34,771 bases of DNA from a virus (taxonomy: Duplodnaviria > Caudoviricetes), in IMG/VR virus record IMGVR_UViG_3300043781_000064, positions 1-34,771 of that record. One strand, given 5' to 3'. Under the pieces are notes generated by a model, which had not been told where the DNA came from, did no database searches, and saw nothing but the letters and a program-made list of their open reading frames with translations. Below are positions 2,134 through 34,207 of the stretch, piece by piece (position 1 is the stretch's first letter; each line of letters begins with the position of its first letter). Made by a program: the position numbers and the translations under genes.

Positions 2134-2352
2134 ATGAAAAAAATATTTAGAGCAATTAAAGATAGGTTTGAATTAAGTGCTTTTATTTCTATCATAATTG
2201 CCATGCCAGTAGCGATAGCAGTTAAAGACTTCAACCCTGGCTTTTTCATGTTTTTTGTCTTTCCCTGCTCATTTATTTTTCTTCGGTATGATGATTCTTC
2301 TCATCAGTATTTGAAATATTGGGAGACTCATTTGAAATGGCGTTTCCACTAG
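2134..2352 (+). CDS. Small membrane protein, convergent with and overlapping the 357-aa gene
   Basis: G-rich RBS, two hydrophobic stretches; 3' end overlaps 2273-2352 in antisense. Confidence 0.45.
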   Translation: MKKIFRAIKDRFELSAFISIIIAMPVAIAVKDFNPGFFMFFVFPCSFIFLRYDDSSHQYLKYWETHLKWRFH

Positions 2353-3346
2353 TTTTAATTTCCAAGCCTAGCTTATCAGCTGGGCTATTTTTAATGGCTT
2401 TAAGTTGTTCCCTTTTAAGGGAAATATCGAGATGCTCACTATATCGATCCTGGCACCACTTAACAAGTCCTTGTTTTAGAAAATCAGTGCCTCCAAAAAG
2501 TATTAGAATCACAAAGGGATGACTATTTCCAAAACCCCAAAGTTTATCAATAAAAATACTTAATGTTTTTAAATTAGCAATGTTTGCAATGAAGGTGAAG
2601 AAGCCAGGTGAATGGATATCCGCTGTCATTTGGACGGTTTGTAAAATGGAATCATCTTTTGGAAAAATAGTTGCCCAGTCGCCCAGCGTTAAATTTCCAC
2701 CATGATTTGCATATATTCGAACGTAGATATTATTACTGTAAATGAAAATTGGTGAAATTAGCCCCATAAACTCTGTAAGATGTTGTTTATCATCAATATT
2801 AAAAAGGGCTTGATGAGCATTCAATACCCAAACAAGAGTGGAAGGTAGTTCTTCTCTTCTAATAGTAGAGATCCATTTTACACTCCTGCGTTTAATATAG
2901 TTAGAGATTGCGAAGTCTTTGCCATTGATTGGAGCATTTTTGATTCGTTCTTTGATGTAATCCGTATCTTCATCAAATGCATCGCTGGTAATACATCCAA
3001 TGGCAAAATGTGATGATCTTTTGCTTGGCACTAATACAACATCACCTATATGCATTCCAAACACGAAATGATAGGTCATATTGGATCGACCAGTTAAGCT
3101 TTGTTTGCTGATATCTGGATCATTGCTTTTCTCTTTAAAAATGTCCCTAATGGTTTCTACTGACTGAATACCTTTGATATTCAATACATCATCAACGTGA
3201 ACATTGTTATATCTGATCCCAACATAAGAATCGTCTATAAAATCTTCGAAATACTTTCCACCTTCAGCTCGTAAAAGCCAGAAGTGAGTATTAACATCGA
3301 ATTCTGGAATATGTACTTGTTTACTATTCATAATTTCAGTTTCCAT
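2273..3346 (-). CDS. Hypothetical protein with an N-terminal PUA/EVE-like domain (as at the N-terminus of some Mrr-type proteins); candidate defence gene
   Basis: FWLLRAEGG, MHIGDVVLVPS..FAIG.I, KRRSVKWI pattern; AT-rich; starts 3 nt after the CI stop. Confidence 0.7.
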   Translation of the reverse strand: METEIMNSKQVHIPEFDVNTHFWLLRAEGGKYFEDFIDDSYVGIRYNNVHVDDVLNIKGIQSVETIRDIFKEKSNDPDISKQSLTGRSNMTYHFVFGMHIGDVVLVPSKRSSHFAIGCITSDAFDEDTDYIKERIKNAPINGKDFAISNYIKRRSVKWISTIRREELPSTLVWVLNAHQALFNIDDKQHLTEFMGLISPIFIYSNNIYVRIYANHGGNLTLGDWATIFPKDDSILQTVQMTADIHSPGFFTFIANIANLKTLSIFIDKLWGFGNSHPFVILILFGGTDFLKQGLVKWCQDRYSEHLDISLKREQLKAIKNSPADKLGLEIKTSGNAISNESPNISNTDEKNHHTEEK

Positions 3347-9282: not shown

Positions 9283-9716
9283 TGCACGAGAATGGTATTA
9301 GCATGTGGTTTCGGTTTGCGGTTGAGCCAGTCGAACAGCAACGGCCTAGAGCTGTGCATCGTAGGAAGGGTATTCGCCTGTACGACCCTGCCAAAGTGAA
9401 GGCGTACAAGGTACAGCTGCATGATCTGGCAAGCCGTGAGTATCATGGCAGTCCTTTTAAGGATGCCATCAAAGTTGAGCTGACCTTCTATCGACGTATT
9501 CAGAAGTCGATCAGCAACGCAGAGTACGAGCGTAGGCTTAAAAATGAGACTCTCCCAACGGTTAAACCGGATACCGATAACTTTATCAAATCGACACTGG
9601 ACGCTCTCACGGGTGTCTTATGGGCCGATGACAACATCATCACCGATATCGTTGCCAGAAAGCGATACAGCGATGATCCGCATATCTTTATCAAAATTAC
9701 GCCAATGAGGAAATGA
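9279..9716 (+). CDS. rusA: RusA-family Holliday junction resolvase
   Basis: KPDTDNFIKSTLDALTGVLWADD catalytic signature. Confidence 0.93.
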   Translation: MMHENGISMWFRFAVEPVEQQRPRAVHRRKGIRLYDPAKVKAYKVQLHDLASREYHGSPFKDAIKVELTFYRRIQKSISNAEYERRLKNETLPTVKPDTDNFIKSTLDALTGVLWADDNIITDIVARKRYSDDPHIFIKITPMRK

Positions 9717-9720
9717 GGAG

Positions 9721-10311
9721 GTGACAGCTGTGGAATCGCCATATCAATCGCTTGACGACAACTGGCAGTGGTATGAGCAGAACTATATGTTTGAGTTTCG
9801 CAATAAGGACCTGCTCGATGGCACAGTTAAACCAGAGGATCAGGAACGCTACGATCTCTTTAAACAGCAGGTAATCAAATATCGAGGCAGTGACGATATT
9901 TTGGAGCATGACAAGCGCACACCACAATGGTACCGAACTGACCGTAAAATCGTTAGGTGGCTAAAAGAAGCCTGGAAGAAGAACAAGGACATTAGATGGG
10001 TCAAGGAACATGCAAAAGTCAGTGAATCAACCTATGACAGACATCTGTTTTTAAGTGAGAATGTAAGCGCGCTGCACAACAAGATAAGGGCACGCAATCG
10101 CCACAAAAAGACATTCGACAAGAAAGTAACTATCTGTATTGATATGCAGACATACAAACGATACGAGTTTGATTCGCGGACTGATTGCGATCATTATTTC
10201 GACTGGCCTACCGGGACAGCATCACAGATGATCAGCACCAAAAAGCATTATCATCATCGCTATTGGATTTTTGATAAGGAAGACGAGGAAAAAGTGCATG
10301 GGAAAGTTTAA
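9721..10311 (+). CDS. Hypothetical protein, possible NUMOD1-like DNA-binding C-terminus
   Basis: KKVTICID...YEFDSRTDCDHYF pattern; start codon uncertain. Confidence 0.65.
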   Translation: MTAVESPYQSLDDNWQWYEQNYMFEFRNKDLLDGTVKPEDQERYDLFKQQVIKYRGSDDILEHDKRTPQWYRTDRKIVRWLKEAWKKNKDIRWVKEHAKVSESTYDRHLFLSENVSALHNKIRARNRHKKTFDKKVTICIDMQTYKRYEFDSRTDCDHYFDWPTGTASQMISTKKHYHHRYWIFDKEDEEKVHGKV

Positions 10312-10395
10312 CGGCTTAGGTACTGCAGTAGTTGTCTGCGTGCTGTTTTGGACGTTTGTAATCGTACTGTTGGCACATGTTTTGGGAGGTTAGGT

Positions 10396-10539
10396 ATGAG
10401 TAAGAAACTAGTACTGGGAACATTGGTAATTGGATTTGAGTATGCAGCTATCGCATCAATTACGATTGCCATGATTATGACGGTCCACAACACCACAGTC
10501 AGGTTCATTTGCTTCATGTTGAGCCTGTTATTTCTTTAG
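10396..10539 (+). CDS. Small membrane protein
   Basis: GGAGG RBS, MSKKLVLGTLVIG..., hydrophobic. Confidence 0.55.
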   Translation: MSKKLVLGTLVIGFEYAAIASITIAMIMTVHNTTVRFICFMLSLLFL

Positions 10540-10635
10540 GCAATCAGCATGGCAGTAAAAAAGAGCCGCACCATGATGGCACGACCCTCTAATGAATCAA
10601 CACCATCAATTATAGCAGAGGAGAGTGGTGTCGTG

Positions 10636-11112
10636 GTGCAAATGGATTTAGGCTTGGAAATCGACAGCAAGGAGACCGCTGCTAATGTGCGACGATTCTG
10701 GACGTATGGGATTAATCGGTATCTATATCAAGCTGGTCTGCATCGCAATCAGCTCAAATCGCCGACACTCAGTCTAGCAGGTGGCGGTGGGTCAACTGGC
10801 AATCATGCTGAGGACAGACTCATTAGTGGGATGCAGGCACAGCGCATGTGCGACTGCATCAGGGATACGCTAGAAAACTGTGAGCCTTTGACGTATCAAA
10901 TCATATCAGCCGTCTATATCGAAGGCCTAAAAGACTGGCAGATGGCCGACAAACTCTGCTATTCATCATCACAGTATCAGTACATCAAGCGGGGATGCAT
11001 GTGTGAGTTCGCTGAGCGATTCGAGGGCTTTGAGCGTCGATATGGATTTGATGAAGATGATCAAGTCAAACTGGTTCAAAAAAATCGGACTTTGACAAGA
11101 CGACGACAATAG
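10636..11112 (+). CDS. ArpU/RinA-family late transcriptional activator
   Basis: IDSKETAANVRRF, LKSP, C-terminal sigma-r4-like HTH (DWQMADKLCYSSSQY), EFAE; last early gene. Confidence 0.88.
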   Translation: MQMDLGLEIDSKETAANVRRFWTYGINRYLYQAGLHRNQLKSPTLSLAGGGGSTGNHAEDRLISGMQAQRMCDCIRDTLENCEPLTYQIISAVYIEGLKDWQMADKLCYSSSQYQYIKRGCMCEFAERFEGFERRYGFDEDDQVKLVQKNRTLTRRRQ

Positions 11113-11219
11113 CAGAAGTGGATTAAACTGGTATCGTGATAGAAATATCACAGGGGCTATTCGGATGCTGCAAACTGTTTTCTTCATCAATGGTTACAGG
11201 CGCTACGGCGTCTGGTTAT

Positions 11220-11371
11220 GCATCGACCGGGCAAAACGGCCAATACCTTAAATAAAATCAATGTTCATGATCTACATGAGTAGTACAGTACCTTCTTTCT
11301 GATTGGATTGGTTAAGCCTGAAATTACGTTTGAAATGCGGCTGTTTAGTGGGTTCGACTCCCACGCGATGC
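11220..11371 (+). ncRNA. tRNA-like unit 1 (acceptor-like stem + T-arm, ~120-nt insert)
   Basis: GCATCG 11220-11225 pairs with CGATGC 11366-11371; T-arm GTGGG-TTCGACT-CCCAC 11348-11364. Confidence 0.6.
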
Positions 11372-11423
11372 TTTCCCGTTAATGCGGGAACCCATTTTAT
11401 TTTTCCAAACCATTACATTAGGC

Positions 11424-11473
11424 ACCGCAAATGGTTAGCTTCAATTGCTGGCGGTTCGAATCCGCCATGCGGT
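11424..11473 (+). ncRNA. tRNA-like unit 2 (50 nt)
   Basis: ACCGCA/TGCGGT stem; T-arm GGCGG-TTCGAAT-CCGCC. Confidence 0.7.
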
Positions 11474-11535
11474 ATTGCGCTGACACACAGCAGCGCATTG
11501 TCAGTATTTAGAGTTTCACTGACTGGAAGGTCCCA

Positions 11536-11600
11536 GGTGGGCACTGCGTTTCTAACCATCATGTCGCAGCGCAAAAAAGGGTGCGAGTCCCTTACCTATC
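11536..11600 (+). ncRNA. tRNA-like unit 3
   Basis: GGTGGG/CCTATC stem (2 G-U); inner CTGCG/CGCAG hairpin; T-arm AAGGG-TGCGAGT-CCCTT. Confidence 0.55.
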
Positions 11601-11674
11601 CTTTTCCTGGCTTTAATTTCTATCAACGACAATATACCTGCCAGGACAACGTGGCGGGCGAATCCCGTCAGCGT

Positions 11675-11765
11675 GGAAGCATGGCTGAGTGGCTTAAAGC
11701 GCCAGTTTGCTAAATTGGTAAAGTCCTTTTATAGACTTTCGCAGGTTCGAATCCTGCTGCTTCCG
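11675..11765 (+). tRNA. tRNA-Ser(GCT)
   Basis: GGAAGCA/TGCTTCC acceptor, D-loop TGG, CCAGT-TTGCTAA-ATTGG anticodon arm, long variable arm, GCAGG-TTCGAAT-CCTGC, G discriminator; CCA not encoded. Confidence 0.95.
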
Positions 11766-11826
11766 TTGAGAGTAGCGCAATTCACTCTCTTGCCTTTCGA
11801 TCGATTTAGGCTTTAGATGAAAGGCA

Positions 11827-11886
11827 GACGGTACGGTCATCCCTATACTTCAGGTGGGGATGTCATGGTTCGATCCATGAGCCGTC
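11827..11886 (+). ncRNA. tRNA-like unit 4 (60 nt, no D-arm)
   Basis: GACGGT/GCCGTC stem; inner CATCCCTAT/GTGGGGATG hairpin; T-arm TCATGG-TTCGAT-CCATGA. Confidence 0.7.
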
Positions 11887-11933
11887 ATTGTCCGAAATGA
11901 CGTTAAACTATATTTCTAACATAGTATTTAGTG

Positions 11934-11963
11934 GGATGACATTGCAGTCATCCTTCTTTTTTC
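11934..11963 (+). terminator. Intrinsic terminator closing the RNA region
   Basis: GGATGAC/GTCATCC stem followed by TTCTTTTTTC. Confidence 0.75.
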
Positions 11964-12003
11964 TTAATATGTTGATATATTACTATGTTAGGAAGTTGTT
12001 CTT

Positions 12004-12918
12004 ATGAGCGAAAAAGAAAATAAGGGTGTTACCGGAAGTCAGACTATGACTTTTAGAGTTTCTGGTAATGAAATGACCAAGAAAACTGGTTATAATTTGG
12101 ACTATGTTATTGAAGCTTTTTCTAATGCCGATAATTTAATAAAGAAAACATATCTAGCATTAAATGATAGAGAAAGATTCATGGAGCATGATGCTGAAAA
12201 GTTAACTGTTAGACTTACGGAAATCAAAGAAGGATCTCTGCTTTCAGAATTATGCATACAGTATCAATCTATAATTGCTCCTGCAATGCCATTTATTATA
12301 AGTAACCAAGACTTTATTATGGAAACCATAAAAGATTCTTATGAATTCCTCAAAGCAAAAATAAGTGCAAAGAAGGAGGGAAAAGCTGTGGATGTTGTCC
12401 AAAAGGCGGGCACAAATGGGATAAACATTAACAACAACAGTGGTACAGTAGTAATTACAACCCCACAAGGTCTCCCGAATGTTGCTGATAGATTAAACCA
12501 GCCACTTACTGAATTGGCACAAAGCGTAGATGGCAAAAAAATAACGGGAATTGAAATGTGGACTCAGAAGACAACATCATCAAATATTCATCTAGATGTA
12601 AAGGATAAAGATATATTTAGTGGAACAACCGTAACTACAGATGATGAATTCCAATTTTCTGGGAAAATAATTTCTGGTAATTACGAAACTAATCGTGGCC
12701 GCATTGAAATTTCTAGTAGTGAGAGTCCTGACCTAGAAGCGGGTCAAGCATATTCAGTAGAAATTAACCCTGAATTACATGCTGAAGAAACTTGGAAAGA
12801 AATGTTTCTTACAGACCGTCCGTATTATGGCAAGTGTACATATCAAAAAAATCAAGAGGGAACTTTCAAGGTCCAAAAGTTAATAATTACTGATTGGGAT
12901 GAAAGTCAATGGAAATAA
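12004..12918 (+). CDS. AT-rich accessory (moron) protein of unknown function
   Basis: 304-aa ORF with its own terminator, between the tRNA region and terS. Confidence 0.85.
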   Translation: MSEKENKGVTGSQTMTFRVSGNEMTKKTGYNLDYVIEAFSNADNLIKKTYLALNDRERFMEHDAEKLTVRLTEIKEGSLLSELCIQYQSIIAPAMPFIISNQDFIMETIKDSYEFLKAKISAKKEGKAVDVVQKAGTNGININNNSGTVVITTPQGLPNVADRLNQPLTELAQSVDGKKITGIEMWTQKTTSSNIHLDVKDKDIFSGTTVTTDDEFQFSGKIISGNYETNRGRIEISSSESPDLEAGQAYSVEINPELHAEETWKEMFLTDRPYYGKCTYQKNQEGTFKVQKLIITDWDESQWK

Positions 12919-12920
12919 TA

Positions 12921-12946
12921 AAAAGTCAGCTTAACGGCTGGCTTTT
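12921..12946 (+). terminator. Intrinsic terminator
   Basis: AAAAGTCAGC-TTAACG-GCTGGCTTTT. Confidence 0.7.
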
Positions 12947-12951
12947 GTATT

Positions 12952-13461
12952 ATGTTTTTGGGTGATTTATTTATGTTAAAAAATTTAATTATAAGTTCTC
13001 TCATACCCTTATTGATTTCTGGTATTAGTACTGTAGGTGGTATATGGGGTGCTACTATTCAAGCAAGAAAATATGAAGATTCAAAACGTTCTAAACTTGA
13101 ATCGTATGAAAAAATATTAGAAATAATTGAGCCTATCAATGCTCTCTATATATTAATTCAAGATAATCGTTGGAACGAAGCAAGAAAATTTTGCTTTGAA
13201 GGAAGGTATGATGATTTAGATAACAAACTAAGATCAGGCGTATATGTGTTATTAATTCCTAAAAATATTCGAAAAAATACAGTAACTATTCTAGACAGGA
13301 TGTTAGAAATAGTAGAATTTCAGGAAAAACTTGAAGAAAAGAAGCCACATTATACAGTGAAGTATAATGTGGATATGCTTGAAGTAAGGAAGCACAGCCT
13401 TCACATTGATTATGGGCAATATATTTCTAAAGTGAAACGCAAATATAGACTGTTTAAGTGA
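12952..13461 (+). CDS. AT-rich accessory protein with an N-terminal TM helix
   Basis: LIISSLIPLLISGISTVGGIWGA followed by a helical soluble domain; start may be 12973. Confidence 0.8.
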   Translation: MFLGDLFMLKNLIISSLIPLLISGISTVGGIWGATIQARKYEDSKRSKLESYEKILEIIEPINALYILIQDNRWNEARKFCFEGRYDDLDNKLRSGVYVLLIPKNIRKNTVTILDRMLEIVEFQEKLEEKKPHYTVKYNVDMLEVRKHSLHIDYGQYISKVKRKYRLFK

Positions 13462-13480
13462 TCTTAGGAGGTGAGTAGTA

Positions 13481-13903
13481 TTGGCAAAGTTAACATTAAA
13501 ACAACAGCGATTTATCGATGAGTACATTATCTCTGGCAATGCTACTCAGGCAGCCATTAAAGCCGGATATGCTCCTAAAAATGCTGGACAAACCGGTGCT
13601 GAAAACCTTAGAAAACCACAAATTCAGGCTGAGTTAAAGCGTCGCAATGATGAACTACAATCACAGAAAACAATGGATATGCGGGAAGTGATGGAACGCT
13701 TGGCATCGTTTGGACGTGGTGAAGTTACTGAAGAACAAGTCACTAATAGTGGTGAAATTGTGCAGGTCAAGACCAAGAATAGCGATCAGATTCGTGCATT
13801 GGAACTGATAGGTAAGCGTTATGGTGCATGGACTGACAAGAAAGAAGTATCAGGTAGTCTTGAGATCGATGTGGGAGTTGGTGAGTACGATGAAGATGAC
13901 TAG
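13481..13903 (+). CDS. terS: Terminase small subunit
   Basis: LTLKQQRFIDEYIISGNATQAAIKAGY; AGGAGGTG RBS, TTG start. Confidence 0.95.
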   Translation: MAKLTLKQQRFIDEYIISGNATQAAIKAGYAPKNAGQTGAENLRKPQIQAELKRRNDELQSQKTMDMREVMERLASFGRGEVTEEQVTNSGEIVQVKTKNSDQIRALELIGKRYGAWTDKKEVSGSLEIDVGVGEYDEDD

Positions 13904-16696: not shown

Positions 16697-17651
16697 TGCA
16701 TACTGGCGAGAGCGTGAGTGGCAATTAAAACAGCTGAAGAACGATGACAAGTTCAATCGCCAACTCAAGAGCTATTATGATCAACTGATTGTCGGCATCA
16801 ACAAAGAGATTGACCGAGAAGTTGCATCATTGGCTAGCAGAAATGGGACATCAATCGACAATGCTCGTGCAGCTGTCACTGGTGCAGATATTTCGGCGTA
16901 CGAGTCAGAAGCACAAGCGTTGGTTCGCCAGGCCGATTTGATGCGAGCGGCTGGCCACCATGTTACTTATGACGATTTCAGCGATGAAGTGAATGAGCGT
17001 ATGCGGGTATACAATGCCACCATGCGCATCAATCGTTTGGAACTGCTTAAGTCACAGATTGGCTTGCGCATGATTGAGTGCGGGATGCAAGTTGATCAAG
17101 CAGTGCAAGACAAGGTGTCTAAGGACTACACAGACGAGCTGAAACGGCAAGCTGGTATCCTTAATGTCACCTGCTAAGAACGATCAGCTATGGACGTCTA
17201 GTGATGTTGCTAAGCAGATCATGGTTCAGTTCAATGGTGCAACGTTTAGCCAACGGATCTGGGCGAACCAGGATGCACTGAAAGCTACGTTAGATGCAGT
17301 GATCAGCGTTGGTGTCATACAAGGCAAGAACCCACGCCAGATGGCTAAATTGCTGAAAGATCAAGTTCGTTCTACTATCAACAACCACAGATATGTGACG
17401 GAGCGCATTGCTCGAACCGAGTCAGCTCGTGTCAGCATGCAGCACAGGTTAAGTCGCTAACTGACAACGGCTATCGTTGGTGTAAATGGTATGCAGAGCC
17501 TGGTGCGTGTCGTGTCTGCCGAGAGATTGCTGATAATGATCCTTACGACAAGGGCTTAGGCGTATATCCGGTTGATAAAGCGCCAGAAATTCCAGTACAT
17601 CCCAATTGCCGATGTTCAATCAGCGCTTTTTGGAGTGATAAAGATGTTTAA
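16680..17651 (+). CDS. Minor head protein (SPP1 gp7/MuF-like), two apparent frameshifts
   Basis: YWRERE, RINRLELLK, FSQRIW, ERIARTESAR, HPNCRC recovered across shifts near 17168 and 17433. Confidence 0.85.
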
Positions 17652-18439: not shown

Positions 18440-19322
18440 ATGACTGTTCCAGAAAATGAAATTACGAAAGCAGATCTGATTGCACAATCTATCGACTTTA
18501 CGGAACGTTTTAACGAATCCGTAGCAACCCTGCTTAAGATTATGGGTGTATCACGGATGACGCCAATGACGGCTGGCTCTCAGATCAAGATCTACAAGTC
18601 CGAAGTAACTAAGGCTGACGGCAAGCCCGCTGAAGGTGATGTAATTCCGCTGTCCAAAGTTACGCGCAAGCTGTCTAAGACGGAAGAATTGACGTTCTCT
18701 AAGTACCGCAAGCAAGTTACTGCTGAAGGCTATTCAAGGTGCTGGTTTCACGCCGGCAGTTGCTGATACCGGACAGCAAGCTGCTTAAAGAAATTCAGAA
18801 GGACTATCAAGAAGAGCTTCGTTGACTTTGTTATGACTGGTACGACGACTGCTACCGGCACGAACTTCCAGACGGCATTGGCTAACGCTCTGGGGCAATT
18901 GGCGGTCAAGTGGGAAGATGATGACGTGCAATCTGTGTCTGTTCGTCAACCCAATCGACTTCTACGCATATCTGGGTAGCGCAAACGTAACTGTACAGAC
19001 GGCTTTTGGCCTGCAGTACGTGCAAAACTTCCTGGGCTTCAACACCATCATCATGACTGGTTTAGGTGCCACAAGGTAAGGTAGCTGCTACTGCATCCCA
19101 AAACATCAACTATGCTTACGCCTGCAATGTCTGGTTCGCTAGGGTCAAGCATTTAACCTGACGACTGATGAAACGGGTCTGATTGGTATCGTGCACGATG
19201 CTAAGACTGAAAATGCATCTGTAGAAACGATGGCTATGACTGCTAGTGTAGTTTACCCAGAACGTCTGGACGGTATCGTTGTAGCTACGATTTCTGCTCC
19301 ATCTGCTTCCAATGGTAAGTAA
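18440..19322 (+). CDS. Major capsid protein, about 7 apparent single-base insertions
   Basis: AEGDVIPLSKV, KYRK; removing extra bases gives a continuous protein ending ...VYPERLDGIVVATISAPSASNGK*. Confidence 0.88.
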
Positions 19323-22272: not shown

Positions 22273-25200
22273 ATGGGAGAATCTTATAGTGTCAAAGCCA
22301 TTCTCTCGGCAGTTGATACCAGTTTTTCATCCACAATTGCTCGTGCCGGACAGGCTACTGAATCATTCGGCCAGTCAGTTAACAAACATATGCAGGGCGT
22401 TGGTAATGCCATGATTGCGGCTGGTACTGCTACTACGGCAATGGGTGTTAAAGCGGTTAAGGGGTTTGGTAGCTTTCAGTCATCTCTTAACCAAGCTGCG
22501 GTTATCGCCGGTGGGACGGCTAAAGACATTGATGGCTTGTCTGATGTAGCCAATCATATGGGCGCTGTTTTGCCAATCAGTGCTCAAGATGCAGCTGATG
22601 CTATGGTGGCGATGGCCCGTGATGGTGCTTCGATTGGCACGATCAAAAAGGAATTCCCAGCAATTGCGGAAGCGGCGACTGCGGCTGGTGCAAATCTGCA
22701 AACGACTGCCAGCGTTGTTCAACAAGCTATGAACATCTGGGGAGACAGTCTTAAATCGCCACAACAGGCTGCTGCTATCCTGACGCAAACAGCTAACTTA
22801 TCCAACGCGTCAATTGAAGACATGCAACAAGCACTGGCTACGATTGGTTCTGTTGCCAAACTGGCTGGCATGAATATGAGTACAACATCCGAAGCTATCG
22901 GTTTGCTCACCAATCGAGGATTTAGCGCTGCACAAGCGTCAGAAGATCTTAGCTATGCTATACGGCAAATGTTAGCTCCATCTAAGGGTGCCAAAAAGGA
23001 AATGGACGCATTAGGCCTATCATTCGTTGATAGTTCTGGCAAGATGAAGCCATTCCCACAGATTCTGAAAGAAGTTGCTGCGGCAACTGACGGCATGGGT
23101 GATGCTCAGAAGACAGCTGCACTTAAGACCATGTTCGGTGCTGCTGGTATGCAAGCAATCGCTCCATTGTTAGATGCTGTTAAGGATAAGTCTGATAACA
23201 CCACTACATCATGGTCTGCTTACGCTAAAGCCATGAATGGTGCTGCCAAAGACACTCAGACAGCTACTAAGTTTTTGAGCGATCAAGCTAACGAAATGCA
23301 ACAAAACTTAGGTTCTAAAATTGAGCAAGTTGGCGGTAACTGGGAAGCACTGCGTAACAAGGCAATGCAGACTAAAGGCGGCTGTAACAGTGCAATCCTA
23401 GACATGATGAACCAGTCTCTAGAATGGGCAACTACATCTAATAGTAGTACAGCTCAGGTAATCCGTAGTTTCATCGGTATGTCACCAGCGATTGGTGCTG
23501 CTACAACTGCATTAGGTGGTCTCTTTAAAGGTTGGGGTAAACTGATTTCGTTTGGTGGTAGCGTCATTAAAACGATTGGCAATGTTGGCCGTGTCATGAA
23601 GGCATTATCGATGGCTGGCGATTTAACCACTGCTATTGGCAGTCTGCGTAAATTAGCTGCAACATCTCAACTTGCTGCGGGAGCAATGCGGGTTCTACAA
23701 GTAGCACAATTGGCTTTGGCTAATCCCTGGGTCGCAATTGGTGTCGCGATTGCAGCCGTTGTTGCAGCATTGGCAGTATTTTTCACTAAAACTAAGACGG
23801 GCCAGGCGATGTGGAAACAGTTTACGCAAAGCGTTGCGGATTCCGTTGATGGTATCAAGCAAGCCTGGCAGAGCATGACAGACTTTTTCAGCAACCTTTG
23901 GAACAATATCGTTACTACTGCACAGAATGTCTGGAGTAGTTTCGGGCAGTTCTTCAGTCCGGTTGTTCAATCGGTTGAATCAGTATGGCAAGGATTATCT
24001 GATTTCTTTGGCAACTTATGGAACGGCATTGTTACCTTTGCTCAAGGTGTCTGGAGTTCGTTTGCTCAAGGCATGGCACCAATCGTAGACGCCTTTAAAA
24101 ATCTATGGAGTGCGTTGACTGATTTCTTCAGCACATTGTGGCAAGGAATCGTTAATACTGCACAAACTATCTGGCAAGGTCTGTTGCCAATTGTTACTAC
24201 CGTTTGGAATGGCATTAAAACCGTTGTTTCAACGATCATGCAAGCCATCTCGGACGTGATTCAGACAATTGGAACTGCAATTCAAACTGTATGGACGGCA
24301 ATCTGGAACGTTGTTAAAACCGTTGCAATGACGATTTGGGATGCAATCAAGAACTTCATTAGCCTTGAAATGCAAGGAATTCAGACAGTTATCCAAAGCG
24401 TCATGGCTATAATCCAAACTATCTGGCAGACTGCCTGGAATGTTATTGAAACGGTCGTGCAGACAATTTGGTCAATCATATCAACAACTGTATCTACGGC
24501 TATTAATGCCGTGGCAGGCGTTATTAGAGCGGTAACTGATGCAATCAAAGGCGATTGGTCTGGTGCTTGGAATGAGATAGAGAATGTTGCCTCAACTATT
24601 TGGAACGGCATTACATCAATTGTATCTACTGCAATTAACGGCGTACGGAGCATCATTTCCAGCTGTGATGAACGGCATTAGATCAGTGTGGTCGTCAGCC
24701 TGGAATGGCATTAAGAGTGTTACTTCGGGCGCAATGAGTATGGTACGATCGGTCGTTTCAAGGTGGTATGTCAGCAATGCACAGCGTTGTTTCGAGCATG
24801 ATGAGTGCGGTTCAATCAGCTTTCGTTAGTGGTTGGAATGCAGCACGTAATGCTACTGCTAATGGCATTGCACGAGCAGTGAGTGCTGCGCGGTCCATGA
24901 CAGGCGCAATGGTATCTGCCGGTCGTGATTTCGTCATGGGCTTTGTCAATGGTATTGAAGGTGCAATCTGGCGTGCTGCGTCTGCTGCTGCTCGTATGGC
25001 TAGCGCGGCTATGAATGCTGCTAAAGCATGGTTTAACATTGGATCGCCATCAAAAGGTTATGCGCTGATCAAGTTGGTAAGTGGGTACCCGCTGGTCTGG
25101 CAGTTGGTATCGAGCAGAATACCGATCTTGTTGAAAATGCTGCTAAGCGTATGGCGGAAGCTGCTATGCCAGATATTCATATGACTGACATGCAACAGCG

Positions 25201-25384
25201 AATCAACGGGGCACTGTCTCACGGTGCATCATTTGGTGGAACGGTTGACCATGAACTTAATGTGGTACAACAACCGGCTTATATCAACTTGTCATTAGGC
25301 GGTTCCAACTACACGACTTTTGTTTCTGACATTTCTCGTGAACAAGGCAGTCAAGCATCACTGGCACGCAATTATCGTTTCTAG
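22273..25384 (+). CDS. Tape measure protein, apparent frameshifts near 24660, 24765 and 25060
   Basis: ESYSVKAILSAVD, Trp/Phe-spaced 11-aa repeats, IGSPSK; split into four ORFs. Confidence 0.9.
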
Positions 25385-31463: not shown

Positions 31464-33206
31464 ATGACACTATTTGACATCGCGTATGATGATTTCAAAC
31501 GTGAAGATACGACTAACGTTATCACTATTACTCTGTATACTGATGACAGACAGCCGATCACACCTGATGCCAGCCACACGTGGAAGGCAAAAGTATCTAA
31601 GGAAGACAAATATGTCGGCGAGTACCCGGTAACAATCTCTGGTGACACAATCAAGTTATCATCGAGTAACTTAACTCGGTTGCCGAACGGTGACTATGGT
31701 CTAGAACTGTGGGAAACATATAGCGGATCTACCACTATCTATCCATCAGCCGGAGTGATGGAGTTTCGAGTACACAGAAATGCCAATGATACACTGGGGA
31801 CAATTGATCCGACTACTGATATCAACGCCATCATTGATGACCTGCATAAAGCCGGACAAAACATCAAAGTAGTTGCCACTAATACGTTGCCTGCTGGAAG
31901 CAAGGCGTCAGTAACGCAGTCTATCGCTAATGGTGAAAACCAACTAACGTTTAACATTCCACAAGGTATTCAAGGCGAGCAGGGTAATGTCGGCCCAGCA
32001 CCTACGTTAAAAGTCGGGACGGTAACTAAGCTGAATCCCGACCAGGCACCAACAGCAAATCTAAGTGGTGGTAATGGTAGTTACACGCTTAATCTGGGTA
32101 TTCCGCAGGGGGTACAGGGAGAAACAAACGCTACTGCTATTAATGCTTTGAATGCCACCAACGCAATTCGTGAACAAATCACAGCTGTTTTAAATGCGCT
32201 TGGTGATGTATCAGTACCTAGTGTTGCTATGCAAAGCAACAGCTACATTACACCAAGTGGTGAACTTGCTACCTATGGCAGTAGTCTATCAGCTAGTGAC
32301 TATGTACCAGTCAAAGTGGGCCAGCTGGTTATCTTACAAAACGTAAGCGGAAACGATAATCGTTCTGCTGCTTTATATGATGCTAATAAGCATCTACTAA
32401 AGTCTTATAAGTATGACAGCCAACCCGTTCGGCAGATCCCAGTATCACAAGATGGATATATCAGATATACCAATAACAACGGCGAAACAACGATTACGAT
32501 TTTCACGCCGCGTTTCGCAATTAAAGATAATGTGGTCGCCAATCCCTACGCAGATATGTCACTTTTTCAAAAAGTCGGAGTGATCGGCGATTCTTATGCG
32601 TCTGGGGAGCTAGTTACTTACAATGATACAGTACCAACGTTTACCGACCACTATGAAATTTCTTGGGGACAAATTCTAGCCCGCAAGCATGGCTTTAAGT
32701 GCATCAACTATTCGGCAGGTGGCAAAACCACCGCTAGTTGGCTTGCAGACGCCAATCACGGTTTGCAAAAACTATTGTCAGATGATCCTTGCGAGTTGTA
32801 CATTCTGGCGCTTGGCATCAACGATCGTGATCACTTTGAGCTAGGGACTACTGATGATATCTCGACCGATGGTACAGGTACCGCTCAAAGCTTTTACGGA
32901 TGTTATAGCAGAATCATCTATAATATCATCGCTCATGCGCCAAAAGCTAAGCTGATCTTGTCAACGCTTGCCGCAACGGATGATAAATCTGAAAAATTTA
33001 ACCAAGCAATTATTGATTTGGCTACTGCTTTTAAGATTGCATATATCAAGCAGTCTGATGATGCATACTTTACTAGCGCCGCATATAAAAATATGCAGGG
33101 TGGTCACCCGCGTGCTGTGGGGTACTCAGGCATGGCAGCTGCACTTGATCGTTTAATTGTAAAACGTATGGTTAACGACAGTTACTTTAACGACCTGTTT
33201 ATGTAG
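31464..33206 (+). CDS. BppU-like/collagen-motif protein with a C-terminal SGNH esterase
   Basis: IYPS N-domain, IPQGIQGEQG motifs, IGDSY / SAGG / LGIND / GHP blocks. Confidence 0.8.
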   Translation: MTLFDIAYDDFKREDTTNVITITLYTDDRQPITPDASHTWKAKVSKEDKYVGEYPVTISGDTIKLSSSNLTRLPNGDYGLELWETYSGSTTIYPSAGVMEFRVHRNANDTLGTIDPTTDINAIIDDLHKAGQNIKVVATNTLPAGSKASVTQSIANGENQLTFNIPQGIQGEQGNVGPAPTLKVGTVTKLNPDQAPTANLSGGNGSYTLNLGIPQGVQGETNATAINALNATNAIREQITAVLNALGDVSVPSVAMQSNSYITPSGELATYGSSLSASDYVPVKVGQLVILQNVSGNDNRSAALYDANKHLLKSYKYDSQPVRQIPVSQDGYIRYTNNNGETTITIFTPRFAIKDNVVANPYADMSLFQKVGVIGDSYASGELVTYNDTVPTFTDHYEISWGQILARKHGFKCINYSAGGKTTASWLADANHGLQKLLSDDPCELYILALGINDRDHFELGTTDDISTDGTGTAQSFYGCYSRIIYNIIAHAPKAKLILSTLAATDDKSEKFNQAIIDLATAFKIAYIKQSDDAYFTSAAYKNMQGGHPRAVGYSGMAAALDRLIVKRMVNDSYFNDLFM

Positions 33207-33246
33207 TTTTTTTAAGTCGCCTAAGAAAGATAACAGTACCTTATGT

Positions 33247-33275
33247 AGGCTCGGCTTTGATGCCGGGCCTTTTTT
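33247..33275 (+). terminator. Late operon terminator
   Basis: AGGCTCGGC-TTTGAT-GCCGGGCCT followed by a T run. Confidence 0.8.
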
Positions 33276-33288
33276 ATAACAATTGAAT

Positions 33289-33376
33289 AAGCCCTACACA
33301 TGGCACCCAAAAACATCAAGAAAGAAAAGAGGTGAGTCCTCTCCTTAATTGACACTAGCCGTGTGTAGGGCTTTTT
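33289..33376. other. 16-bp stem with a 53-nt structured loop
   Basis: AAGCCCTACACATGGC / GCCGTGTGTAGGGCTT; inner AGAGG-TGAGT-CCTCT. Confidence 0.7.
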
Positions 33377-33584
33377 CTCTTATTAGGAAAGCATGAGTCG
33401 TTACTACAGAAGGCATGGAAGCTGCAACCAGCGTTAAGGATCTAATAAAAAAATTTGAATTTAAAAAATAGCAATGTTAGAATCTGACTGTAAAGAAAAA
33501 AACACACCACAAACTTGTGGCGTGTTTAAAATAGTTAAGGCTTGTCCTAGACCTTGCTATACTATCTGTACTAGTGTCAGCTTA

Positions 33585-33614
33585 AAAAGCTCTGTTCCCA
33601 GCAGGGCTTTTTTT
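33585..33614. terminator. Bidirectional terminator
   Basis: AAAAAGCTCTGTT-CCC-AGCAGGGCTTTTTTT. Confidence 0.7.
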
Positions 33615-33705
33615 AATGAAAGATAACAGCCATTAAAGCACAAAATGCGATAAATGCAGTTACGAGCAAAACGCCAAACTGCACAGGCTGTGATAATCCA
33701 TGCAT
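33613..33705 (-). CDS. 30-aa single-TM peptide, type I toxin-like
   Basis: MHGLSQPVQFGVLLVTAFIAFCALMAVIFH*; AAAGGT upstream; stop abuts a terminator. Confidence 0.55.
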   Translation of the reverse strand: MHGLSQPVQFGVLLVTAFIAFCALMAVIFH

Positions 33706-34207
33706 AGCTTCAATGACCTTAGCTAATCCGTTGAACATATAGAACAACAGCAGCATGCTCCTTTATAGACTCGAAGCATGCGTTTTAAATAGCACAACTT
33801 CGGCATAAGAACCACCTCACTTTCTGACTCATTCAAAGTGAGCATAGCAAGGTGCATGCCTTAACAGACTGATTATACTATAAAAGAACATAAAATTCAG
33901 ATTGAAAATTCGTCTAGCTTTATTCCTGAAAAGTAATATACTATAAGAGAAAATAGCTAGTCATTCTACGGGATCTAGTTATAGTGCGCACGATAAAAGC
34001 CCTTCTTAGCATATTGCTGAGTGGGGCATTTTTATGGTACTAAAGATAGACTTGTGAAGTGGTTGACTGGAAGCAAAATGGCAACAGAAAATAGAACATT
34101 TAATGATATTGTGATGAATGTTTATAATGCTGTATAATTGTAGCAAATTGAACAGTGGCGTAGGATTAAAACTATTACTGCATAATAGTGAATGCCACCA
34201 TTAATTC

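What the first reader, a model, noticed from the sequence alone, without database searches (positions are those of the whole stretch)
11178..11851. Single-stranded inserts of the RNA array read as antisense to translation starts
Seen: reverse complements of several loops resemble RBS/start regions. 11612-11639 gives AGGTATA-TTG TCG TTG ATA GAA ATT AAA. About 11261-11300 gives AGAAAGAAGGT...ATG..ATGAAC. 11391-11413 gives ATGGTTTGGAAAAATAAA-ATGGG. 11549-11562 gives ATG ATG GTT AGA. 11178-11187 gives ATG AAG AAA. 11836-11851 gives GAAGTATAGGG-ATGAC. 11775-11789 gives GAGAGTGAA-TTGCGC. Inference: each module may display a seed that blocks translation of a different host, defence or rival-phage mRNA, making a multiplexed silencing array. 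CAT/CAA trinucleotides are common by chance, so this is a hypothesis. I found no convincing long target inside this window.
Basis: inference. Interest (0 to 1): 0.75.

Follow-up and report, generated by a model that had tools for sequence, protein, structure and literature searches.

The report
Phage tRNA-like array gags neighbour gene
A Lactobacillus-group prophage carries an 800-base chain of predicted tRNA-shaped RNA units whose last unpaired stretch is complementary to the ribosome-binding site of the next gene, which in relatives is often an anti-phage defence gene, so the RNA likely switches that gene off when the phage turns lytic; the inner loops that were flagged have no target shown.

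Summary
The quoted reverse complements are correct, but start codons turn up in nearly all shuffles of the same segments. In the window, anti-Shine-Dalgarno (SD) sites are not more numerous than chance (17 vs 16.1). The array itself is real. It is a modular chain of tRNA-like units with covarying stems behind the ArpU late activator, and the same plan occurs across Lactobacillaceae prophages. Inside the flagged span only 11288-11301 is a convincing anti-SD (p about 0.02, kept in 15 of 15 arrays). No inner loop had a target above shuffles among phage, moron or sampled host starts. Those tests have low power, and no host chromosome was available. The well-supported antisense element lies just outside the span. 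The tract 11913-11926 pairs with the ribosome-binding region of the next gene (12004). In relatives this tail changes together with the next gene's leader: 23 of 33 non-core pairs reach p<=0.05, against 1 of 11 core genes. Many of those genes are defence genes (Kiwa, AbiN, PD-T7-4, SieB). Best reading: late, ArpU-driven RNA likely silences the phage's own defence moron, as insertion sequences do against read-through. A multiplexed trans-silencing array remains open (about 0.3).

The parts
10636..11112 (+). ArpU-family late activator gene (longest ORF from 10549)
   Evidence: TIGR01637 61.6 bits, over cut-off; phrog_248; relatives named ArpU of Limosilactobacillus mucosae
11094..11109 (+). two 5-base direct repeats 11 bp apart, candidate activator site
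   Evidence: read from the sequence printed; relatives have 2-5 repeats at about 11-bp spacing at the same place; binding inferred from PMC3753634
11129..11137 (+). candidate extended -10 element of the array promoter
   Evidence: by eye, similar element at the same place in relatives; NOT found by the promoter scan
11140..11213 (+). variable 5' leader with pyrimidine tract (S1) and a covarying hairpin at 11198-11213
11220..11371 (+). tRNA-like unit 1: acceptor-like stem and T-arm around a large insert
   Evidence: fold; pair counts
11288..11301 (+). strong anti-Shine-Dalgarno tract in the unit 1 insert
   Evidence: p 0.02; 15 of 15 arrays
11373..11420 (+). spacer module: hairpin plus unpaired tract S3, laid out like the 3' tail module
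   Evidence: best phage hit is a moron leader, nominal only
11424..11473 (+). tRNA-like unit 2 (minihelix with variable middle arm)
11477..11523 (+). two spacer hairpins
11525..11601 (+). tRNA-like unit 3 with a 16-base loop in the anticodon position
11606..11645 (+). spacer hairpin with 28-base loop (S7)
11649..11674 (+). short hairpin unit 4
11675..11765 (+). tRNA-Ser(GCT); relatives carry tRNA-Tyr instead or a copy cut down to acceptor, variable and T arms
11768..11825 (+). two spacer hairpins
11827..11886 (+). tRNA-like unit 6
11911..11929 (+). anti-RBS tail (core 11913-11926), swapped together with the next gene's leader
   Evidence: joint at 11910 in run X15
11933..11961 (+). intrinsic-terminator-like hairpin and U-run
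11981..12003 (+). leader of the moron with SD at 11990-11995; target of the tail
   Evidence: 17 bp, -18.0 kcal, p 0.005, rank 1 of 33
12004..12918 (+). low-GC moron 1, unknown family, weak likeness to candidate defence protein PDC-M32A
   Evidence: E 0.0024; 6 of 30 homologues hit PDC-M32A at E<=0.001; no Pfam hit
12927..13461 (+). second terminator, leader and moron 2 (ORF from 12952 or 12973); has no matching tail in the window
13481..13903 (+). terminase small subunit, first core late gene
   Evidence: phrog_51

Best explanation
The region is an 800-base chain of predicted tRNA-shaped RNA units at the start of a prophage's late region, and its last unpaired stretch is complementary to the ribosome-binding site of the next gene, which it likely blocks when the phage turns lytic. 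Shown: the modular structure with covarying stems, the position behind arpU, the tail-leader complementarity and its change together with the gene in the slot, and defence annotations for many slot genes. Inferred: ArpU fires the promoter in front of the array on induction. Transcripts that run through the terminator then fold tail onto leader in cis (the released 3' piece might also pair in trans), so the cassette's gene is not translated from late RNA, while a short transcript from its own promoter lacks the tail and is translated in the lysogen. Inferred: RNase P and RNase Z cut at the tRNA-like units and release spacers and inserts as small RNAs. The inner loops may be further antisense seeds, but only one (11288-11301, a generic anti-SD) is statistically distinct and none has a target.
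For: Structure: 1710 of 1772 cells paired, 20 of 122 pairs with changes on both sides in 15 arrays; fold z -5.2. The same plan of T-arm units behind arpU-like genes occurs in gasseri/johnsonii, delbrueckii, reuteri, helveticus and casei-group phages. Tail against cognate leader: window -18.0 kcal, p 0.005; 23 of 33 distinct non-core pairs p<=0.05 and 17 of 33 p<=0.01, vs 1 of 11 core late genes. Cognate mean -17.4 vs permuted -10.0, 0 of 100000 permutations over 24 protein clusters; at least 2 SD bases paired in 29 of 29. Over 8 leader classes the cognate pairing is the best of 40320 permutations. Run X15 holds an allele in which 11911-12939 is replaced by a different tail that matches the leader type of gene 12973. 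Slot genes include Kiwa, PD-T7-4 (2), AbiN, PDC-M11, PDC-M67, TIR-like, SieB, HigB. ArpU activates a late promoter through repeats just behind its gene (PMC3753634, passages), and such repeats precede the arrays. Prophages must switch off their own defence on induction (PMC11087260, passages).
Against: No transcript, processing, read-through or repression was observed; RNA-library contigs cannot show expression. The promoter scan found neither the array promoter nor the moron promoter. ArpU is described as an activator, not an antiterminator, and its model gave no match at E<=0.001 and no Q protein in the listed rows, so how late RNA passes the terminator is unexplained. 10 of 33 pairs are not significant; 5 of these are misfiled or have lost the cognate leader, 5 are not explained. 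The 33 pairs reduce to about 8 leader classes, and I picked the 8 representatives by hand. A -18 kcal duplex is not unusual against a whole shuffled array (33 of 40 shuffles better); the significance rests on fixed position and repetition. G-U bias towards the RNA strand (22 vs 7) is also seen in the core controls (9 vs 1), so it does not exclude a DNA-level repeat. Moron 2 of the window has no tail. The window's own moron is only weakly linked to defence.
Confidence: 0.62

Rival explanations
1. Multiplexed trans-silencing array: RNase P/Z release each spacer or insert as a small RNA that blocks the ribosome-binding site of a different host, defence or rival-phage mRNA. Compatible with the best explanation and adds to it.
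For: A conserved strong anti-SD exists in mucosae (median p 0.01), gasseri (0.03) and helveticus (0.01) arrays; Fisher p 0.005 over 14 families. S3 has the same layout as the tail module, shares 12 bases with one tail class (17 of 500 shuffles as good), and its best hit among 366 phage starts is a moron leader (p 0.027). Stems are conserved (0.90) while most loops vary (0.50-0.82; two loops 0.91 and 0.97).
Against: No excess of anti-SD sites in the window. The opposite strand gives Fisher p 0.058, driven by SD-like strands in reuteri, gasseri and Lj928 arrays. No inner seed beats shuffles against phage pools (mean z 0.1-1.2 in the wrong direction) or 318 host and plasmid starts. 42 clusters of inner tracts: 4 nominal against 29 moron leaders (Fisher 0.27) and 5 against 29 core starts (0.36).
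Confidence: 0.3
2. The inner units are decayed or repurposed tRNAs that act as decoys or structural RNA (for example against tRNA-cutting defence nucleases, or as a mimic of the 16S rRNA 3' end), and their loops do not pair with mRNAs.
For: Real tRNAs come and go in the chain, and one is cut down to acceptor, variable and T arms in L007, L010 and L013. Only the generic SD core is shared between the two unit 1 alleles. The locus type (prophage tRNA islands) also holds GOLLD and ROOL RNAs of unknown function (10.1101/2024.12.08.627333, passages).
Against: It does not explain the tail-leader covariation. None of the T-arm units in the window, the tRNA-Ser included, encodes a CCA end. No decoy test was possible.
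Confidence: 0.3
3. The tail-leader repeat is only a property of portable moron expression cassettes, possibly acting at DNA level (operator or recombination site), and has nothing to do with the array or with lytic switching.
For: The tail travels with the cassette, not with the array core (junction at 11910). It also occurs behind a lone tRNA in Streptococcus phage Javan1. The strand asymmetry test does not discriminate.
Against: The arms are imperfect, contain G-U type pairs, differ wholly between 8 classes and always cover SD bases (29 of 29). This fits RNA pairing better than a protein site, although the search was limited to the leader.
Confidence: 0.15

Closest known systems
RBS sequestration against read-through transcription in insertion sequences (IS10, IS50, IS200); recalled, and named in an earlier scan note; no paper read
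   Same: An upstream tract, present only in transcripts that start outside, pairs with the ribosome-binding site; the gene's own short transcript lacks it.
   Different: Here the stem encloses a terminator, sits at the end of a phage late tRNA-like array, exists in about 8 sequence classes and guards swappable defence-type morons rather than a transposase.
C4 antisense RNA of phages P1/P7 and CI RNA of P4 (RNase P substrates per PMC5499578, passage; their targets and mode of action recalled)
   Same: Small phage RNAs cut out by RNase P that pair with sites further down the same operon.
   Different: No Rfam match. Those RNAs lack a T loop according to the passage, whereas the units here keep it. 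They are single RNAs of immunity regions, not a chain behind a late activator.
Lacto-phage-1 RNA motif (Rfam RF03004; PMC5737381, main-text passages only, supplement unreadable)
   Same: It is one module of the reuteri-type arrays (3 of 15 loci scanned).
   Different: Absent from the window; described as a single motif of unknown function, as far as I could see.
GOLLD and ROOL RNAs (10.1101/2024.12.08.627333, passages)
   Same: Long non-coding RNA of prophages near tRNA genes, function unknown.
   Different: No Rfam hit at E<=1; this RNA is a chain of local modules that are gained and lost, not one conserved ornate fold.
Tha/Ith self-immunity of S. aureus prophages (PMC11087260, passages) and TERi of Listeria (10.1101/2025.02.27.640495, passages)
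   Same: A prophage defence gene has to be turned off on induction.
   Different: Those use inhibitor proteins and overlapping opposite-strand transcription; here a same-strand RNA tract would hide the ribosome-binding site.

Membership tests
tRNA (units 1, 2, 3, 4, 6) | cloverleaf recognised by tRNA models | tested here: not met
   only 11675-11765 is called by ARAGORN and Rfam
tRNA (units 1, 2, 3, 4, 6) | acceptor-like stem plus T-arm | tested here: met
   units 1, 2, 3, 6 by fold and pair counts; unit 4 is only a short hairpin
tRNA (units 1, 2, 3, 4, 6) | cleavage by RNase P and RNase Z | not testable with these tools
   only contigs, no raw reads
GOLLD / ROOL | match to the family covariance model | tested here: not met
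   none at E<=1 in the window; none at gathering score in 15 related loci
Lacto-phage-1 motif | match to RF03004 | tested here: not met
   absent from the window; present in L233, L240, L252
C4 / CI antisense RNAs | match to family model | tested here: not met
C4 / CI antisense RNAs | unpaired tract complementary to a site downstream in the same operon | tested here: met
   tail only; not for the inner loops
IS-type RBS sequestration | upstream tract pairs with the SD in the long transcript | tested here: met
   predicted fold and covariation
IS-type RBS sequestration | own promoter starts between the two arms | tested here: inconclusive
   -10-like hexamers follow the terminator by eye (printout); the scan found none there in the window
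IS-type RBS sequestration | read-through transcripts exist and are poorly translated | not testable with these tools
   needs RNA-seq and reporters
trans-acting antisense sRNA array | inner seeds with specific mRNA targets above chance | tested here: inconclusive
   negative in low-power tests on phage, moron and partial host pools; host chromosome not available
CRISPR-like repeat-spacer array | direct repeats with unique spacers | tested here: not met
   no repeat family with more than 2 copies in 9500-13500

The most novel reading that the evidence does not exclude
Lactobacillaceae prophages carry a natural polycistronic guide array. tRNA-like punctuation is cut by host RNase P and Z, releasing a set of antisense RNAs that each cover a ribosome-binding site. 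The last silences the phage's own defence moron, and the inner ones (S3 being a captured tail module) silence defence genes of the host or of rival prophages during late infection.
Probability: 0.28. Interest if true: 0.9.

Novelty: new variant of a known kind. Interest (0 to 1): 0.68.

Why it matters
How a prophage avoids being killed by the defence genes it carries is an open question, and the solutions I found in print use proteins or overlapping opposite-strand transcription. A general RNA lock at a defence hotspot, working for many unrelated genes through about 8 swappable leader classes, would be a simple and directly testable answer. It also gives a marker for finding new defence genes: most slot genes are unannotated. 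The array gives a context for the orphan Lacto-phage-1 motif and for non-coding gaps of up to about 1500 bases behind arpU in many dairy and gut phages. If the inner modules are also antisense guides, this would be a natural multiplexed silencing device.

Tried and rejected
Whole-array anti-SD enrichment: none in the window; ratios 0.6-1.8 in the larger families. Long complementarity to the window's own genes: only 15-17-base G-U-rich chance matches (that script's 15-base cut missed the 14-base tail pair). Related-phage targets: 366 starts with RNAduplex, S3 alleles, 37 of 43 thinned anti-SD seeds against pools of 493, 426, 53 and 175 starts with flank shuffles: nothing. ArpU autoregulation: no clean duplex in the 4 loci scored before the script failed. 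Host sample: 318 starts from 37 IS256-flank metagenome loci plus one L. mucosae plasmid, mixed lactobacilli and accessory DNA: no inner seed above shuffles. The tail matched a HipA-like kinase start (0 of 30 shuffles), which I leave as unexplained or chance. Pairing of S7 with the array's 5' end: does not covary, rejected. Minus-strand small genes behind the SD-like words: frames not conserved, rejected. A pattern scan of viral contigs for T-arm units returned mostly unrelated tRNA clusters. The genome-contig scan gave 2 spurious loci. RNA-library contigs in 3 studies cover arpU and/or the array but cannot show transcription, and an RNA run also covers terL: not used as evidence. ArpU model against PDB: only weak sigma region 4 matches. 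ESM Atlas on moron 1: unnamed clusters, DUF7946 lead. Ten literature searches found no description of the array or of the tail; the library lacks most subscription papers.

Full report
Setting. The window is a near-complete provirus record of a siphophage whose ArpU relatives are named from Limosilactobacillus mucosae. The finding lies in an 830-base gap between the arpU-like gene (10636-11112) and a low-GC gene at 12004; terS starts at 13481. Rfam at E<=1 and ARAGORN find only tRNA-Ser(GCT) at 11675-11765 there. The gap folds better than all 20 shuffles (z -5.2).

Observation. The seven reverse complements are quoted correctly. Shuffles of the same segments contain a start codon 99-100% of the time and SD plus start 0-42% of the time. 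Four of seven real segments have both, but they were chosen for that look, and two overlap stems. Anti-SD 7-mers are not enriched in the window array (17 vs 16.1; 4 vs 4.3). One tract, 11288-11301, is a near-perfect complement of the extended SD (p 0.02) and is present in 15 of 15 mucosae-type arrays in two unrelated insert alleles. Similar best sites occur in gasseri (median p 0.03, 32 arrays) and helveticus (0.01) arrays; Fisher p is 0.005 over 14 families. The opposite-strand control is close behind (p 0.058), because several families carry SD-like strands, by eye often paired to the anti-SD.

Anatomy. Fifteen viral loci show the same array with modules gained, lost and swapped. In the window and 14 relatives (L001, identical, left out) 1710 of 1772 stem cells are paired and 20 of 122 pairs change on both sides; these helices were defined by me on the window sequence. 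The units keep an acceptor-like stem and a T-arm, while the D and anticodon parts are replaced by inserts. The real tRNA-Ser is cut down in three relatives and replaced by tRNA-Tyr in two. Between units lie hairpins with unpaired tracts. The same plan stands behind arpU-like genes of gasseri/johnsonii, delbrueckii, reuteri, helveticus, phiadh and Lj928 (70), casei-group phages and a second L. mucosae phage. Rfam's Lacto-phage-1 motif is one module in 3 of 15 loci scanned. Direct repeats about 11 bp apart precede the arrays, where ArpU-type activators bind according to PMC3753634 (passages). Cutting by RNase P and Z is my inference from the tRNA-like shape.

Targets of the inner loops. No host chromosome could be obtained. 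Against 366 starts from 11 L. mucosae-type phage records no seed's best hit beat shuffles; only the anti-SD seed had a lower median (0 of 25). With the SD core fixed and flanks shuffled, 37 of 43 thinned seeds in four families were scored, and real flanks paired no better (mean z +0.1 to +1.2). Against 318 starts from mixed lactobacilli next to IS256 copies and one plasmid, none of ten inner seeds stood out. Against 16 moron leaders, S3 (11389-11420) reached p 0.027 and S5b 0.043 among 13 tests. 42 clusters of inner tracts from all families showed no excess. These tests are weak. The true cognate pair described below ranks first among 366 starts yet is matched by 8 of 25 shuffles, and 33 of 40 whole-array shuffles beat it.

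The tail. The last unpaired tract, 11913-11926, pairs with 11981-11994 across the terminator and covers the SD of gene 12004. I looked at 93 loci; 61 gave a terminator and a downstream ORF, and 44 distinct pairs with a gap of 70 bases or less were scored. Duplicates, longer gaps and loci without a called terminator were dropped. Among 33 non-core pairs 23 reach p<=0.05 and 17 reach p<=0.01 against 200 tail shuffles. The 33 include two misfiled core genes, two with a wrongly called terminator and one with a replaced leader, all kept in the count. Among 11 core late genes 1 reaches 0.05. With one representative for each of 24 protein clusters the cognate mean is -17.4 against -10.0 permuted (0 of 100000); at least two SD bases are paired in 29 of 29 pairs, the four misfiled or miscalled ones left out. 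The leaders fall into about 8 classes across four genera; for 8 hand-picked representatives the cognate pairing is the best of 40320 permutations. Run X15 holds an allele in which 11911-12939 is replaced by a 35-base piece whose tail matches the leader type of gene 12973, so tail and leader are exchanged as a unit at 11910. Slot genes hit Kiwa, PDC-M11, a TIR effector and, weakly, PDC-M32; PD-T7-4, AbiN, Kiwa, PDC-M67 and TIR in 6 of 23; SieB, HigB, DUF4145, DUF6731 and KwaB in 8 of 24. Most remain unannotated, and the window's own moron is only weakly defence-like.

Mechanism. Most likely (0.62), late RNA from the ArpU-controlled promoter carries the tail and hides the moron's ribosome-binding site, in cis on read-through RNA and perhaps in trans, while the moron's own short mRNA is translated in the lysogen. 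This would spare the phage from its own defence gene, a need documented for other prophages (PMC11087260 and 10.1101/2025.02.27.640495, passages). Not shown: transcription, read-through, either promoter, repression. Against it: ArpU is reported as an activator and its model resembles only sigma region 4 weakly. In delbrueckii phages, however, terS follows the terminator by about 30 bases, which suggests read-through. Moron 2 lacks a tail. The strand-bias test does not separate RNA from DNA.

Comparison and novelty. It is not a member of GOLLD, ROOL, C4 or Lacto-phage-1 by model match. Ten searches found no description; the library is partial, and the supplement of PMC5737381 could not be read. 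For PMC3714127 and PMC5737381 I saw main-text passages only. Verdict: real array, first reading partly supported, new variant of a known kind, interest 0.68; the multiplexed reading stays open at about 0.28.

Noticed in passing
window 33613-33857 (-): A 47-aa hydrophobic ORF (33756-33613) behind a Cys-rich 27-aa leader ORF with a strong SD: looks like a type I toxin locus. Its leader RBS is the second-best site in the window for the 11288-11301 tract (16 bp with a bulge) and the best in G007, without a significance test.
   Followed up: partly
window 33190-33400 (+): Two small structured RNA-like cassettes after the last gene: one ends in a terminator and shares a 10-base word with the unit 1 insert; the other is a long stem enclosing an SD/anti-SD hairpin like the reuteri array modules.
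   Followed up: no
L233, L235, L240, L252, L253, arrays behind arpU: Reuteri-type arrays hold strong SD-like words without conserved ORFs, paired to anti-SD tracts in hairpins; a toehold-like layout.
   Followed up: partly
window 2273-3346 (-): Candidate defence gene PDC-S02 (E 5e-16) in the immunity region.
   Followed up: no
L025, L027, L235, L244, L250: A tail of a known class is kept although the next gene (SocA/Panacea-type antitoxin gene by its annotation in L020) has another leader: orphan tails.
   Followed up: partly
L296 1204-2001 (-): The start of a HipA-like kinase gene forms an 18-bp duplex with the window's tail (0 of 30 shuffles); chance or a related cassette.
   Followed up: partly
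window 17164-17460, 18440-18766, 22273-25184: Minor capsid, major capsid and tape-measure frames look interrupted (short or split ORFs), possibly assembly errors or decay.
   Followed up: no
L063, L068, L084, L106, L113: Freshwater-type phage contigs with tRNAs followed by what looks like a two-piece tmRNA with a tag ending in MAA.
   Followed up: no
L258 (NZ_CP058957.1) 24590-25260 (-): A record filed as an L. mucosae plasmid is a phage with a second array type sharing unit 3 and the conserved core of the S7 loop.
   Followed up: partly
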